From the human T2T-CHM13v2.0 reference genome, Homo sapiens: a stretch of DNA of 64,000 bases. This document shows positions 30,790 through 36,340 of the stretch, piece after piece. Within the stretch, counting starts at the first letter, position 1. Each line of letters opens with the position of its first letter. The translations under genes were made by a program, and so were the position numbers. The notes under the pieces are model-generated. The model did no database searches and was not told where the DNA came from. It was given only the letters and a program-made list of their open reading frames with translations. The stretch lies in assembly GCF_009914755.1 (NCBI RefSeq), contig NC_060933.1; one strand, written 5' to 3'.

Positions 30790-31890
30790 TTATTCATCCT
30801 TGAACCTACTCCAGTCTGGTTTCTGCCTCATCAAGTCTGCCATGCCACATCTTACTAAAGTCACCAATGGCATCTAGGTTTTCATATCCACTGAGATAGT
30901 TTAGTCCTAACCTTTCCTAAGTGCATCATTCAATTTTTAAACCCTTTATTTTATTTTTCAATACTTTCTGATGATAATTCTCTCCTGATTGTCTCCTAAC
31001 TGTACTCACCACTCCATTTCTGCACGCTTTGCTCTTCTCTTCCCTAATCTTGTAAATTGACGATCTTCCTAAGATTTAGGTCATCTTCTCATTCTACACT
31101 GTACTTATAAGTAAACACATACATTACCATGCCCAGATTCCTACAAATCATGTCCAGCTTATATACTGTTGAAGATTCCAAACCCACATATGAATTTACC
31201 AATAGGACATAAACATATACATTGCAATGACCAGATTCCTGCAAATTATGTCCAGCTTATACATTGTTGAAGATTCCAAATCCACATATGAATTTACCAA
31301 TGGGGCATCTGTTTTTAGATGTTTCAGAGGAACTTTATGGAGTACACCTGTTTGTTTCCTTTCTTGTTATCCCTTTTTCAAGCTTCTGATGAGAGAATCC
31401 TTTGTCCTCGACATCTCATGAAAACATAATTGAAATGTATTAACCATGATTACTATTTTTTTCTTTCTCTAAAATGGAAAGTTATGAGAGGATGTTTTAC
31501 ATTTGCTTTATTTACCTATATATTTCCAGAAAAATTGCATAATATGGCATAGAAGTATGCCATTTTAAAACATAATCTGATTGAAATAAGTGAATGAGGG
31601 AGTTGAATTCAATAATCTAGCTTGCAAATTTAGATTATTTCCTTTTTTTTTTAAGAAGAAACATACCCAAGAAATCTTTTGGGGAAGAATGTAATAAATA
31701 TTTTAAAAAGTAAATAAATGTAAAAAATGAATAGAATATAATTGGACACAAGGTAAAGGTGAACATATTTCATTATATTTTAATATATTATAAAGATGAA
31801 CAAGCTATATGACAAGAACTACTTTAAATATCATAAATAATATATCTTAGATAAAGCATATGAGTGAATATAGAAATGCATTAGAGCCCT
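30790..31890 (-). other. Relic IFN-type 3' flank (L2 relic plus AT-rich 3'UTR-like segment) without a CDS
   Basis: Colinear similarity to IFNW1 11570-12600, e.g. aagcttctgatgagagaatcc vs aagcttctagtatgagaacatc, and gtaaaggtgaacatatttc vs ggaaagctgaacatgtttt. Confidence 0.65.
31112..31308. repeat. Two-copy tandem duplication, about 98 bp unit
   Basis: ccagattcct(a/g)caaat(c/t)atgtccagcttata...cacatatgaatttaccaat occurs twice. Confidence 0.9.
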
Positions 31891-32097
31891 TAGCTTATTA
31901 ATCATTGTTATTTAAAATTTGTTTTGATAATTTCAAAATCTCTGTCATATCTGGACTTAGTTCTGATGCTTACTCTATCTTTTCAAACTATGTGTTTCAT
32001 CTTTTAGCGTACCTTGTTAATTTTTTGCTGAAAGGTGGACATGATGGATTGAGTAAAAGGAGCTGAGGAAAATTGACCCTTAATGTGAGGGTATTTT

Positions 32098-32199
32098 AAA
32101 AATCTAGTCAAGTGAAGCAGTGGGAGTGGAGAGGGAACAAAGGAATCTGTAACTGGTTGTGATGGATTAGTTGTAAACACCACTGCACTCAGACCAGCC
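32098..32199 (-). pseudogene. Y3 RNA (RNY3) processed pseudogene
   Basis: The minus strand reads ggctggtctgagtgcagtggtgtttacaactaatccatcacaaccagttacagattcctttgttccctctccactcccactgcttcacttgactagattttt, a near match to full-length hY3. Confidence 0.93.
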
Positions 32200-32459
32200 C
32201 AGTGTAAGCCTTTGTGGTTATCTTGCTGGTGGTTAGGCTGCGTTTCCTGTTTCCTGTAGCTTTATGTGTCAGAAGCTAAAATTTGCTCTTGTGTCCTTGC
32301 ATTTGTCTCCCAATTTGTCTTTGGATTTCCCTAGAGATTCCTTCTTAAAGTCTAAGTCTAAAATTTGCAGTTATTTTCAGTTGAAATCCTGTTATTATAC
32401 AGGAACCCTATTAATGTGATGGTAGATGTGATGGTTAATTTTAGGTGTCAACTTTTGAC

Positions 32460-34557
32460 TTTTATGTATGTGTATATATATATATATATATATATAAACA
32501 TATATATATGTTTCTTTATTCACTCATTGATTGATGGGCATTTCGGCTGGTTCCACATTTTTGCAATTGTGAATTGTGCTGCTATAAATATGCGTTTGCA
32601 AGTATATTTTTCACATGTTGACTTATTTTCCTCTGGGTAGATACCTAGTAGTAGGATTGCTGGATTGAATGGTAGTTCTACTTTAGTTCTTTAAGGAATC
32701 TCCACACTGTTTTCCATAGTGGTTGTACTAGTTTACATTCCCACCAGCAGTGTGAAAGTGTTACCTTTTCACTGCATCCCCTCCAACATCTATTATTTTT
32801 GGATTTTTTTATTATGGCCATTCCTGCAAGAGTAAGGTGGTATCACATTGTGGTTTTGATTTGTATTTTCCTGATCATTAGTGATGTTGAGCATTTTTTC
32901 ATGTTTGTTGACCATTTGTATGTCTTCTTTTGAGAATTGTCTATTCATGTCATTAGCCCATTTTTTGATGAGGTTGTTTGTTTTTTTCTTGCTAATTTGT
33001 TTTAGGTCCTTGTTTCATACCGGGGATGCAGGGATGGTTTAACATACGCAAGTCAATAAATGTAATACATCACATAAACAGAATTAAAAACAAAAATCAC
33101 ATGATCATCACAGTTGATGCAGAAAAAGCATTTGACAAAATCCAGCATCGCTTTATGATTAAAACCCTAAGCAAAATCGGCATGGAGGGGACATGCATTA
33201 AGGAAACAAAGGCCATCTATGAAAACCCACAGCCAACATAATACTGAATGGGGAATAGTTGAAAGCATTCCCTCTGATAACTGGAATCAGACAAGAATGC
33301 CCACTCTCACTACTTCTATTCAACATAGTACTGGAAGTCCTAGCCAGAACAATCAGACAAGAGAAAGAAATCAAGGGCATCCAAATTGGTAAAGAGGAAG
33401 TCAAACTGTTGCTGTTTGCTGATGATATGCTTCTATACCTAGAAAACCATAAAGAGGTCTCCAAAAAGCTTCTAGAACTAATAAATGAATTCAGCAAAGT
33501 TGCAGGATACAAAATTAATGTACACAAATCAGTAGCTCTGCTCTACACCAACAGTGACCAAGCTCAGAATCAAATCAAGAACTCAACCCCTTTTACAATA
33601 GCTGTAAAAAAATTAAATACTTAGGAATATGCCTAACCAAGGAGGTGAAAGACCTCTAGAAGGAAAACTACAAAACACTGCTGAAAGAAATCGTAGATGA
33701 CACAAACAAATAGAAACACATCTCATGCTCATGGGTGGGTAGAACGAATATTTTGAAAATGACCATACTGCCAAAAGCAATGTACAAATGCAATGCAATT
33801 CCCATCCCAGTACAACCATCATTCTTTACAGATCTCTAGACAATCCTAAAATTCTTATGGAATTTGAGCCTGCATAGCCAAAGCAAGACTAAGTGAAAAG
33901 AACAAATCTGGAGGCATCACATGACCTGACTTCAAACTATACTATAAGGCCATAGTCACCAAAACAGCATGGTACTGGTATAAAAATAGGCAAATAGACC
34001 AATGGAACAGAATGGAGAACCCAGAAATAAACCCAAATGCTTACAGCCAACTGAACTTTGATGAAGCAAACAAAAACATAAAGTGGGGAAAGGACACCCT
34101 ATTCAACAAATGGTGATGAGATAATTGGCAAGCTACATGTAGAAGAATGCAACTGGATCCTCATCTCTCACCTTATACAAAAATCAACTCAAAATGGATC
34201 AAAGACTTAAATGTAAAACCTGAATCCATAAAAATTCTAGAATATAACACCTGAATAGAATAGAATAGAACACCAGAAAAATCCTTCTAGACATTGGCTT
34301 CTAGATATAATTCTAGATCAAAGACTAAGACCTGAAACCATAAAAATTCTAGAAGATAACACCAGAAAAACCCTTCTAGACATTGGCTTAGGCAAAGACT
34401 TCTTGACCAAGAACCCAATAGCAAATGCAACAAAAACAATGATAAATAGGTGGGACTTAATTAAACTAAAAAGTTTCTGCACAGCAAAAGAAACCATCAG
34501 CAGAGTAAACAGACAACCCACAGAGTGGAAGAAAATCTTCACAATCTATACATCTGA
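32460..34557 (-). mobile_element. L1PB-like element with 5' inversion (32460-33012 minus, 33013-34557 plus), 3' tail missing
   Basis: The plus part encodes ORF2 RT pieces ([10 protein letters not shown]...; [12 protein letters not shown]). The two parts are nearly contiguous in the L1 consensus. There is an internal duplication at about 34197-34390. Confidence 0.85.
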
Positions 34558-34661
34558 GACAGGATTTATTAGACCCCTTTGACAAGTAACCTCCTTAGGA
34601 GAAAGGCCTATATCTTGTTCACTCTTTTATCATTATCACAGGTCTCATAGTAATGACTCAA

Positions 34662-34729
34662 GATACAATTATTAACAAGTATCATATTCCAGTAGGATAC
34701 AATTATTAACAACTATCACATTCCAATAG
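34662..34729. repeat. Two-copy tandem duplication, 34 bp unit
   Basis: gatacaattattaacaa(g/c)tatca(t/c)attcca(g/a)tag occurs twice. Confidence 0.9.
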
Positions 34730-34797
34730 GTGTAGCTAAAAAAGACAGTTGTTAACAAATAGTGTTCTCAGATTTTCTCTTAAAAAGGAGCACTTTC

Positions 34798-35118
34798 AGC
34801 CAGGCATAGTGGCTCATGCCTGTAATCCTAGCACTTTAGGAGGCTGAGGCGAGCAGATCACTTGACATCAGAAGTTCAAAACCAGCCTGGCCAACATGGT
34901 GAAACATCATCTCTAATAAAACATAAAAATACAAAAATTGTCTGAGCATGGTAGTGCACACCTGTAGTCCCAGCTACTTGGAAGACTGAGGCATGAGAAT
35001 TGCTTGAGCCTGTGAGCCAGGGGTTGCAGTGAGCTGAGATTGTGCCACAGCACTCCAGCCTGGGCAACAGAACGAGACACTGTCTCAAAAATGAAAACAA
35101 GCAAAGAAACAAAAAAAC
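34798..35118 (+). mobile_element. Alu SINE (S/J-type)
   Basis: Alu dimer with an A-rich tail. Confidence 0.92.
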
Positions 35119-35119
35119 C

Positions 35120-36340
35120 AGGAAGACCTTCAAGTGTGGCCATGTCCATGTGACTGTGCCTCACCAAGGCCTCAGGTGCAGGATTGTTGCAAGAGTTTTT
35201 CACTCAGTATTGTTGTCAAAATCACTGGCTAGCTTATATGTTTTAATTGCACATGGGTGTGCCAATTTTAATTCCAAGACCCACAACATTGTTATCCTTT
35301 CCCCAGCACAATCTCACCTCTCAGAGAGCACAACTTTAATCTGACCCTCTGGATCTGAGTGCTCACAGACACACCTCTTCCAATCTAACTCTTGCCAACA
35401 CACTAATGTGATAGTACAAGTTAGCTCATCACAACTTGAAACTTTTAGTATACCTTTACTATAGGGTGATTGCTTTTGTTCCCTAAACAATCAAATATCT
35501 CCAGAGTACTTCTGTGAATGACCTAGGTTGGCAGCAGTAACCTCATCTTCCTTTGATCAGATACTTAGGTGTCAAGTGTCTTCATAGCCTCCAGATGACA
35601 AAAGCAAAAATGTATGCTCAATATGTGTGCATGTGGTCAGGGGGTGGGTAAATTATCCTTTTTAAATTTTTATCTTAGATAGCAAAATAAATTTATTTGC
35701 CAATTGTTGATTTCTAATTTGAGTTCAATGCATTAAACTGTTGAACATTTATTACGCTCCAAATTTCTTAGCTAGCCAGAGGATTCAATTTTTACTTTTT
35801 CTTATAAGGAGGTCATATTGAAGTAACTACTGAATGTCCCTTCATTTTTCCATTGGTGCATTTCTACTGAGCTTCTTGGTTTACCATTCTCCACCTCACA
35901 ATAAAAATGTGGGGCAATAAAGTCCAGAATATGATGCTAGATAAAATTACTCTTCCTTACTGGTCTCATTGTCTTTCTATATCTATCTATCTCTCTCTCT
36001 ATATATATATATTTCTATATCTATCTATCTATCTATCTATCTATCTATCTATCTATCTACATAATTAAATTAGTATTTTTCTTTGCCAGGGTTGTCTTAT
36101 TGCTTCTGAATTACTCCCTATTTCATCTTGAGTTTAGTACCTCAACAGGGAAATAAAAATGTAAAGAATCTGGTAATGCAAAGAATCTGTATTATTATTT
36201 CCCATAATTTTCAAGTCATCATTTTTCTTTCTCCATTAAACTTTTTTAATAAGCCGTTATTACATTTGCATAAGTTGAGGCAAAAGAAGAAATGTAAGTC
36301 TCAATATAATAAAAGTAAAAGAAACAAAGTGACTCTCTAG
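35120..36340 (-). other. Relic IFN-type 5' flank
   Basis: Colinear with IFNW1 upstream 14440-15180 and 16400-16680, e.g. aactgttgaacatttattacgctc vs agctattgaacatttgttatcctc, and gggttgtcttattgcttctgaattac vs ggtttgtcttgctgcttctgcattac. Confidence 0.7.
35975..36060. repeat. (TATC)n / (TA)n / (TC)n microsatellite
   Basis: Directly visible. Confidence 0.95.

What the first reader, a model, noticed from the sequence alone, without database searches (positions are those of the whole stretch)
30790..36340. 'Ghost' interferon locus between IFNW1 and IFNA21: both flanks kept, coding region gone
Seen: 30790-31890 is colinear with the IFNW1 3' flank (same L2 relic, then an AT-rich 3'UTR-like stretch). 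35120-36340 is colinear with the IFNW1 upstream region, e.g. ttgaggcaaaagaagaaatgtaagtctcaat vs ttggggcaagaaagaaaacagaaaatataagtctgaat. Order and orientation match a minus-strand IFN gene. Between the flanks there is only an L1M fragment with a Y3 retrocopy, about 30 bp of an MLT2-like start (32427-32458) and an L1PB lacking its 3' tail. Two elements truncated at the same point (about 32460) suggest a deletion scar. Inference: an additional, deeply diverged type I IFN gene once lay here and lost its CDS and promoter. Protein-based pseudogene annotation would miss it. I cannot tell which lineage (alpha, omega or other) it belonged to.
Basis: partly seen in the sequence, partly recalled or inferred. 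Interest (0 to 1): 0.8.

Follow-up and report, generated by a model that had tools for sequence, protein, structure and literature searches.

The report
Coding-less relic of interferon gene
Between the human IFNW1 and IFNA21 genes lie the two outer ends of a very old interferon gene whose middle (coding part and promoter) is gone and replaced by jumping-gene debris; it is an unlisted but ordinary by-product of how this gene family grows and decays.

Summary
Window 30790-31895 aligns in one 1.08-kb stretch to the IFNW1 3' flank plus distal 3'UTR (nhmmer E 6e-22). It aligns about as well to the IFNA flanks. Window 35121-36349 aligns colinearly to IFNW1 upstream (E 1e-12 and 4e-9) and to IFNA upstream regions. 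None of 100 dinucleotide shuffles, nor the reversed sequence, gave any hit. No coding or promoter similarity remains between the flanks. That interval holds a high-copy repeat split by a Y RNA retrocopy, a (TA)n run, two inverted L1 pieces and an Alu. One L1 piece lacks its 3' end, which supports a later deletion near 32460-32511. On trees the relic lies outside the alpha clade and outside the omega clade, joining near their split with a slight omega lean. Its upstream part has two more copies in the cluster, forming a separate lineage with 99/99 support, and neither has a coding region beside it. Other coding-less interferon relics also occur in the cluster. Verdict: real, apparently unannotated, an ordinary birth-and-death relic. 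Interest is low to moderate. Other mammals could not be examined.

The parts
30790..31895 (-). 3' flank plus distal 3'UTR of the lost gene (G3). It includes the 'X' segment at 30790-30920 and an internal 98-bp tandem duplication at 31112-31308.
   Evidence: nhmmer 30798-31875 = IFNW1 11576-12657, E 6e-22. blastn matches to 10 other IFN flanks. TRF. Multiple alignment of the end. 0 of 100 shuffles hit.
31896..32430 (.).
   Evidence: 753 first-look candidates genome-wide. The halves q3-193 and q317-535 are adjacent in a copy on C17.
32098..32199 (-). Y RNA retrocopy, 102 nt. The length fits Y3; that length is recalled.
   Evidence: Rfam RF00019, 73.8 bits, E 2.5e-14. 88-94% identical to many genomic copies.
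32431..32510 (.). This is the likely deletion junction.
   Evidence: TRF. Sequence read.
32511..33014 (-). L1 piece from the late part of ORF2. It lacks the rest of ORF2, the 3'UTR and the poly(A) that should lie to its left.
   Evidence: 73-77% identical to other L1 copies. Minus-strand ORFs. Copies at 118915 and 142046 continue leftward past this point. No Pfam hit at E<=0.01. The ORF2 assignment is recalled.
32996..34579 (+). L1 piece covering the reverse transcriptase to the later part of ORF2, inverted relative to the previous piece. Together they look like one twin-primed or inverted L1.
   Evidence: Pfam RVT_1, E 8e-7 and 2.5e-13. 34299-34563 is the reverse complement of 15744-16007, which is contiguous with the match to the other piece at 15221-15726.
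34580..34798 (.). Unassigned, with a 34-bp x2 tandem at 34662-34730. It may be the remainder of the upstream region.
   Evidence: Only a marginal match: 34554-34639 = 181542-181629, E 0.01. TRF.
34799..35120 (+). Alu insertion.
   Evidence: 72-76% identical to other Alus in the window. Partial Metazoa_SRP matches.
35121..35940 (-). Upstream segment U1 of the lost gene. It corresponds to about -0.7 to -1.5 kb of IFNW1 once the Alu is discounted.
   Evidence: nhmmer 35122-35704 = IFNW1 14435-15041, E 1.4e-12. 35150-35937 = IFNA4 60972-61796, E 6e-13. 74-75% identical paralogue x214.
35980..36059 (.). (TATC)n simple repeat.
   Evidence: TRF. Scattered genome-wide hits.
36072..36349 (-). Upstream segment U2 of the lost gene.
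   Evidence: nhmmer 36072-36339 = IFNW1 16419-16679, E 3.5e-9. 61.8% identical to 116682-116933. 70% identical to C9:21362011-21362280.
36361..36485 (-). Extra diverged copy of the 'X' segment that starts interferon 3' flanks. It is cut at 36492 by the start of the IFNA21/IFNA4 duplicated block.
   Evidence: 66-72% identical to X in the IFNA14, IFNA17, IFNA10, IFNA4 and IFNA21 flanks, and 68% to ghost 30796-30880. The block 36492-41556 = 57370-62514 at 85.8%.

Best explanation
Window 30790-36349 is the decayed remnant of one old repeat unit of the type I interferon gene array. It was a minus-strand gene, and two parts survive: the 3' flank with distal 3'UTR (30790-31895) and the upstream region from roughly -0.7 to -3 kb (35121-36349).

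The core of about 1.3-1.8 kb is missing. That core comprised the proximal 3'UTR, the coding region, the promoter and the proximal upstream. Its place is taken by 3.2 kb of inserted mobile-element sequence.

The most likely course is inferred, not shown:
1. The already inactive or dispensable gene collected a repeat fragment in its 3'UTR (later hit by a Y RNA retrocopy) and an inverted L1 in its upstream region.
2. One deletion, running from the first repeat to inside the L1, then removed everything between. This left the junction at about 32430-32511, where a (TA)n run now sits.

The relic has no function of its own. It records gene loss in a family that evolves by duplication and decay.

Its lineage split from the others at about the time alpha and omega separated, with a slight lean to the omega side. 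Before or after losing its core, its upstream part was copied together with a neighbouring alpha gene.
For: Homology of both flanks:
- The matches are colinear, in the right orientation, and far above chance (0 of 100 shuffles).
- The 3' part reaches into sequence that is transcribed 3'UTR in IFNW1 and IFNA21. It is therefore a gene remnant, not merely intergenic flank.
- The upstream part is contiguous as in IFNW1, with 35500-35620 aligning to IFNW1 14843-14960.

Absence of the core:
- No coding or promoter signal between the flanks.
- The interior is mobile-element or simple-repeat sequence, except about 250 unassigned bases.
- The L1 piece is truncated at its 3' side at 32511.

Age and lineage:
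- 3'-flank tree of 13 rows and 1001 columns: alpha clade 100/100 and omega clade 100/100, with the ghost joining between them. Path lengths are 0.66-0.67 ghost to omega, 0.76-0.78 ghost to alpha and about 0.81-0.84 omega to alpha.
- U1 tree: ghost + x214 + x131 form a clade at 99/99, distinct from the alpha, omega and 'P' lineages.
- x214 lies just 3' of another alpha coding region (C9:21364488-21365055). This mirrors the ghost-IFNA21 arrangement.
Against: - No copy of this lineage retains a coding region. x214 has none in the 4.8 kb to its left that I fetched, and x131 is a 108-base scrap. So there is no direct proof that a coding region ever lay between these two flanks at this site.
- The 3' flank has no paralogue, so the link between the two flanks rests on order, orientation and similar divergence alone.
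- The 3' breakpoint lies within about 20-40 bases of the breakpoint of an unrelated omega relic (para116). This hints at a hot spot or another process that I do not understand.
- The trees have no outgroup. The omega lean depends on midpoint rooting.
- The single-deletion scenario is one of several possible orders of events.
Confidence: 0.8

Rival explanations
1. The relic arrived already empty. Either a coding-less fragment or two separate partial duplications (a 3' flank piece and an upstream piece) were pasted here, so no coding region was ever lost at this site.
For: - Coding-less interferon relics exist elsewhere in the cluster. In para116, a 3' flank piece (115612-116261) abuts upstream sequence (116273 onward).
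- u182 keeps only promoter and upstream.
- The copies x214 and x131 carry upstream sequence only.
Against: - The ghost keeps a longer, contiguous upstream stretch than para116 and belongs to another lineage, so it is not a copy of that relic.
- The flanks span exactly one unit in correct order.
- The truncated L1 at 32511 shows that a deletion did happen between the flanks after the L1 inserted.
Confidence: 0.13
2. The similarity is not gene homology. It would be shared old interspersed repeats (L2/MIR type) plus AT-rich low complexity.
For: - The region is AT-rich: GC 0.24 at 31600-31999.
- A short element (35201-35346) recurs at several non-equivalent places.
Against: - A single 1.08-kb alignment to IFNW1.
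- Within the 264 kb examined, all blastn hits of 30792-31222 lie at equivalent positions in interferon 3' flanks.
- 0 of 100 composition-preserving shuffles hit.
- Genome-wide searches found no other copies of the 3' flank. For the upstream part they found only cluster-internal copies, apart from the simple repeat.
Confidence: 0.03
3. The coding region is still present but has diverged beyond recognition, hidden in 31896-32460 or 34580-34798.
For: About 250 bases remain unassigned (32431-32459 and 34580-34798).
Against: - 31896-32430 is a multi-copy repeat plus the Y RNA.
- The unassigned bases are far too few for a 570-590-base coding region.
- The coding-region profile that detects a 26.7-bit relic at 17748-18022 finds nothing here at E<=10.
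Confidence: 0.02

Closest known systems
IFNWP15 / IFNWP9 (annotated unprocessed omega pseudogenes in this window)
   Same: A decayed member of the same tandem array, on the same strand. IFNWP15 shares the homologous 3' flank (48967-50238 matches the ghost at 59%).
   Different: These pseudogenes keep a recognisable coding region, 82% identical to IFNW1. The ghost keeps none. The ghost also falls outside the omega clade that contains IFNWP15.
Coding-less omega relics found here: 'para116' (115612-117781, upstream of IFNA14) and 'u182' (181079-183030, upstream of IFNA5)
   Same: Interferon flanks without a coding region, invisible to protein-based annotation. para116 breaks in the 3'UTR within about 20-40 bases of the ghost's break.
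   Different: - They are 69-77% identical to IFNW1, so clearly omega and much younger.
- para116 lacks the stretch IFNW1 14843-14955 that the ghost retains.
- Neither has mobile elements at its junction.
Old divergent interferon pseudogene lineages (IFNNP1; the pseudogene at 156984-157607, probably IFNA20P, a name that is recalled)
   Same: Similar depth of divergence. The upstream flank of the 157-kb pseudogene ('P' lineage) is as far from alpha and omega as the ghost is.
   Different: Those keep a coding-region relic: E 3e-97 and 3e-101 with the profile. The ghost lineage forms its own clade at 99/99.
L1 twin-priming inversions, and deletions or break repair associated with L1 (mechanisms recalled from the literature, not looked up here)
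   Same: Two neighbouring parts of L1 lie in opposite orientation.
   Different: The expected poly(A) end and target-site duplication are missing. By contrast, the L1 upstream of IFNW1 has both: the duplication GAAGCTTATAT and poly(A) at 16205-16221.

Membership tests
Type I interferon gene or pseudogene locus (unprocessed) | Sequence similarity to an interferon coding region | tested here: not met
   - blastn with the IFNW1 and IFNA21 coding regions: no hit in 30.8-36.3 kb at E<=1e-5.
- tblastn with 4 interferon proteins: all E>1 within 31886-35120.
- nhmmer profile of 17 coding regions: no hit at E<=10.
Type I interferon gene or pseudogene locus (unprocessed) | Homologous 3'UTR and 3' flank | tested here: met
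   30798-31875 = IFNW1 11576-12657, E 6e-22. It overlaps the annotated exons of IFNW1 and IFNA21.
Type I interferon gene or pseudogene locus (unprocessed) | Virus-responsive promoter next to the coding region | tested here: not met
   The IFNW1 9500-18000 query, which includes the promoter, gives no match corresponding to IFNW1 12657-14435.
Type I interferon gene or pseudogene locus (unprocessed) | Homologous distal upstream region, in the cluster, in the same orientation as its neighbours | tested here: met
   U1 and U2 match IFNW1, IFNA4 and IFNA21 upstream regions colinearly on the same strand.
Omega (IFNW) lineage | Groups inside the clade of IFNW1 and the IFNWP flanks | tested here: not met
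   - The omega clade (IFNW1, IFNWP15, para116) has 100/100 support without the ghost, which attaches below it.
- A sister relationship to omega depends on midpoint rooting and a branch of about 0.08.
- U1 tree: the G, W and P lineages are unresolved.
Alpha (IFNA) lineage | Groups inside the clade of IFNA flanks | tested here: not met
   The alpha clade of 9 flanks has 100/100 support and excludes the ghost. The same holds in the U1 tree.
Subfamilies absent from human (delta, zeta, X, tau) | Flank or coding similarity to those genes in pig, mouse or cattle | not testable with these tools
   No other mammalian genome is available here. Passages of PMC2680415 state that delta and zeta are absent in human, and that remnants of an early-arising family might be expected.
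Twin-primed L1 insertion | Two adjacent L1 segments in inverted orientation, with poly(A) and a target-site duplication | tested here: inconclusive
   The inverted adjacent segments are present. The 3' end, poly(A) and duplication are absent.

The most novel reading that the evidence does not exclude
The ghost, x214 and x131 may be the last traces in the human genome of a fourth ancient type I interferon lineage. It would be about as old as the alpha/omega split and would have lost every coding copy in our ancestry. It may correspond to a subfamily that survives elsewhere, such as a delta-, zeta- or X-like gene. If the deletion at 32430-32511 came after the L1 insertion, some primates or other mammals could still carry the coding region between orthologous flanks, which would name the lineage.
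Probability: 0.25. Interest if true: 0.5.

Novelty: new member of a known kind. Interest (0 to 1): 0.3.

Why it matters
Gene counts and birth-and-death models for the interferon cluster rest on copies that still have a recognisable coding region. This relic shows that flank-based comparison recovers additional lost members and an extra old lineage. So do at least three other relics seen in passing: para116, u182 and the 17.7-kb coding scrap.

That refines the reconstruction of the ancestral array and gives markers for aligning the cluster between mammals. It does not change what is known about human interferon function. Nothing here suggests the relic is active.

Tried and rejected
1. Closer work rejected this:
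   - It is an omega-lineage relic, 72-77% identical to IFNW1.
   - It has a different 5' breakpoint, and the ghost retains IFNW1 14843-14955, which para116 lacks.
   - Its left neighbour (115109-115611) belongs to yet another lineage.

2. 30085-30261 looked like the tail of an alpha upstream region, suggesting a second ghost to the left. It was rejected as evidence because the same element also occurs inverted at 19041-19346, so it is probably an old interspersed repeat.

3. IFNA5 seemed to be colinear with the ghost across its coding region. The upstream match at 182.6 kb in fact belongs to the next relic, u182.

4. I looked for a 3' flank next to the coding scrap at 17748-18022 and found none.

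5. I searched the IFNB1 and IFNNP loci for similarity to the ghost. Only Alu matches turned up.

6. Literature: four full-text searches found no description of a relic between IFNW1 and IFNA21.
   - Subscription papers are not covered. These include the 1994 YAC map of the cluster and the 2004 locus paper, both recalled and not seen.
   - Of PMC10223187 I saw one table passage.
   - Of PMC2680415 I saw 12 passages.

8. The part of the cluster beyond window coordinate 184000 could not be fetched, except for 6 kb.

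
Full report
**Setting.** The window is human chr9 (T2T) in the type I interferon cluster. All genes in it lie on the minus strand, so on the + strand each locus reads 3' flank, gene, upstream region. The held genome let me fetch 200 kb around the window and 6 kb further on. 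Coordinates below are window coordinates, including those outside 1-64000.

- A first blastn pass already linked 31332-31876 to the IFNWP15 3' flank and 36071-36349 to 16418-16688 upstream of IFNW1.
- With more sensitive settings, 30792-31885 matches the 3' flanks and distal 3'UTRs of eleven interferon loci at 58-62% identity over 340-620 bases, with E down to 5e-22.
- nhmmer joins the IFNW1 match into one alignment, 30798-31875 = 11576-12657 (E 6e-22).
- The last ~190 bases correspond to sequence inside the annotated exons of IFNW1 (12498-12654) and IFNA21 (37508-37671).
- On the other side, 35122-35704 = IFNW1 14435-15041 (E 1.4e-12) and 36072-36339 = 16419-16679 (E 3.5e-9).
- The same stretch also matches the upstream regions of IFNA4 (60972-61796, E 6e-13) and IFNA21.
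- Neither 100 dinucleotide-preserving shuffles nor the reversed sequence of either flank gave a single hit at E<=1000 with four query loci.
- Genome-wide, the 3' flank has no other copy detectable by the held search.
- The upstream part has copies only inside the cluster, apart from its (TATC)n run.

The correction is that the flanks resemble interferon flanks in general, not IFNW1 in particular.

**What lies between the flanks.**

| Interval | Content | Evidence |
|---|---|---|
| 31896-32430 | Interspersed repeat with 753 first-look candidates; its two halves are adjacent in another genomic copy | |
| 32098-32199 (-) | Y RNA retrocopy splitting that repeat | Rfam 73.8 bits, |
| 32431-32459 | About 30 unassigned bases | |
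| 32473-32509 | (TA)n | |
| 32511-33014 (-) | L1 piece | |
| 32996-34579 (+) | L1 piece with reverse-transcriptase ORFs | Pfam RVT_1, E 8e-7 and 2.5e-13, |
| 34580-34798 | About 220 unassigned bases | |
| 34799-35120 (+) | Alu | |

The two L1 pieces are neighbouring parts of the element in opposite orientation. The end of the plus piece (34299-34563) is the reverse complement of 15744-16007. That stretch is contiguous with the match of the minus piece at 15221-15726, in the L1 upstream of IFNW1. The minus piece should carry the element's 3' end to its left, but it stops at 32511, while other copies continue past that point.

No interferon coding or promoter similarity remains:
- blastn with two coding regions finds nothing here.
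- tblastn with four interferon proteins gives only E>1 in this interval.
- A profile of 17 coding regions finds nothing at E<=10. The same profile does pick up a 26.7-bit relic elsewhere.

**What is missing.** In IFNW1 coordinates the ghost lacks about 12660 to about 14000-14435. That covers the proximal 190 bases of the 3'UTR, the 588-base coding region, the 5' end and promoter, and some 0.5-0.7 kb of upstream sequence once the IFNW1 Alu is discounted.

**Is it one gene's two ends?**
- Order, strand and spacing fit.
- Both parts show similar divergence from IFNW1: 58% for the 3' flank and 56-58% for the upstream parts.
- The block runs from the 'X' segment that starts interferon 3' flanks (30790) to the end of U2 (36349). 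U2 is followed within 12 bases by another diverged X copy (36361-36485), and then by the start of the IFNA21/IFNA4 duplicated block at 36492 (85.8% over 5.2 kb).

The ghost therefore occupies one old repeat unit.

The truncated L1 shows that a deletion occurred between the flanks after that L1 inserted. The simplest reading is a single deletion running from the older repeat, across the rest of the gene, into the L1's 3' part. This is inferred, not shown.

**A false alarm resolved.** It is a different object:
- It is an omega-lineage relic, 72-77% identical to IFNW1.
- Its 5' breakpoint lies at IFNW1 ~14950, whereas the ghost still holds the equivalent of 14843-14955.
- The sequence on its left (115109-115611) is the upstream flank of yet another old lineage, which keeps a coding relic at 156984-157607 in the sister unit.

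Curiously, both relics break in the AT-rich 3'UTR within about 20-40 bases of each other. I cannot explain that beyond a hot spot or chance.

**Age and lineage.**
- In a maximum-likelihood tree of 13 3' flanks (1001 columns), the nine alpha flanks form a clade (100/100), the three omega flanks form a clade (100/100), and the ghost joins the branch between them.
- Path lengths are 0.66-0.67 to omega, 0.76-0.78 to alpha, and about 0.81-0.84 between omega and alpha.
- With IFNW1's flank as query, the ghost scores 71.7 bits against 15-35 bits for alpha flanks.
- Under a clock, the ghost lineage would therefore have left the omega side soon after the alpha/omega split. A passage in PMC2680415 puts that split at no less than 129 million years ago.
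- There is no outgroup, so this remains tentative.

For the upstream segment the genome search found closer relatives:
- C9:21355853-21356396, 21361817-21361978 and 21362011-21362280, at 70-75% identity. I call this copy x214.
- 131699-131806, at 77% identity. I call this copy x131.

In a 14-row tree, ghost, x214 and x131 form a clade (99/99) beside the alpha, omega and 'P' lineages, whose mutual order is unresolved. x214 lies about 2.2 kb before another alpha coding region, just as the ghost lies before IFNA21, so the pair was duplicated together. Neither x214 (in the 4.8 kb to its left) nor x131 has a coding region or a matching 3' flank.

**Comparison with what is known.**
- The cluster's annotated pseudogenes all keep coding similarity. 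This relic does not, so it is absent from the RefSeq table supplied with the finding.
- Four literature searches found no description of it. Older subscription papers on the cluster map could not be searched.
- In kind it is an unprocessed pseudogene remnant in a birth-and-death family, which is expected.
- Similar relics are frequent here: para116, u182 at 181079-183030, and the coding scrap at 17748-18022.

**Verdict.**
Confidence is 0.8 that these are the two ends of one lost interferon gene unit.
- It is a new member of a known kind, of low to moderate interest (0.3).
- The boldest reading still open is that it marks a fourth ancient lineage whose coding copies survive only in other mammals. 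I give that about 0.25. Testing it needs other genomes and a repeat library, neither of which was available.

Noticed in passing
window 17748-18022 (paralogues at 121824-122113 and 161797-162081): A very degenerate interferon coding-region relic lies about 4.1 kb upstream of IFNW1, in the same orientation as the genes. It covers positions 12-303 of the 570-position profile (E 9e-8). tblastn gives weak support: IFNB1 residues 160-182, E 0.018. It is not in the supplied gene table and has no recognisable 3' flank.
   Followed up: partly
115109-117781 (L014/L015, upstream of IFNA14) and 157612-159558: An omega-lineage relic without a coding region. A 3' flank piece (IFNW1 11889-12640) is joined directly to upstream sequence (IFNW1 14948 onward). 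It is preceded by the upstream flank of a third, divergent lineage whose coding relic survives at 156984-157607.
   Followed up: partly
181079-183030 (L021, upstream of IFNA5): A relic of the omega promoter and upstream region (IFNW1 13418-15212 and 16216-16554, 69-73% identical) with no coding region.
   Followed up: partly
window 15212-16221: The L1 upstream of IFNW1 is a complete inverted (twin-priming type) insertion. It has poly(A) at 16205-16221 and an 11-base target-site duplication, GAAGCTTATAT. It is absent from the paralogous unit at 116498/116489.
   Followed up: partly
window 24879-28311 versus 123904-127087 and 138578-141412: The far upstream region of IFNW1 is part of a long duplicated unit (66-71% identical) that recurs twice between IFNA14 and IFNA22P. 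So the omega-type unit was more than 15 kb long.
   Followed up: no
208792-210970 (L022): An interferon pseudogene lies in the opposite orientation to its neighbours, closer to omega than to alpha (coding part 81 versus 60 bits), with its 3' flank. It sits just before x214, so an inversion breakpoint probably lies between 210970 and 213849.
   Followed up: no
window 31112-31308: A 98-bp tandem duplication (2 copies, 88% match) lies inside the ghost's 3' flank.
   Followed up: no
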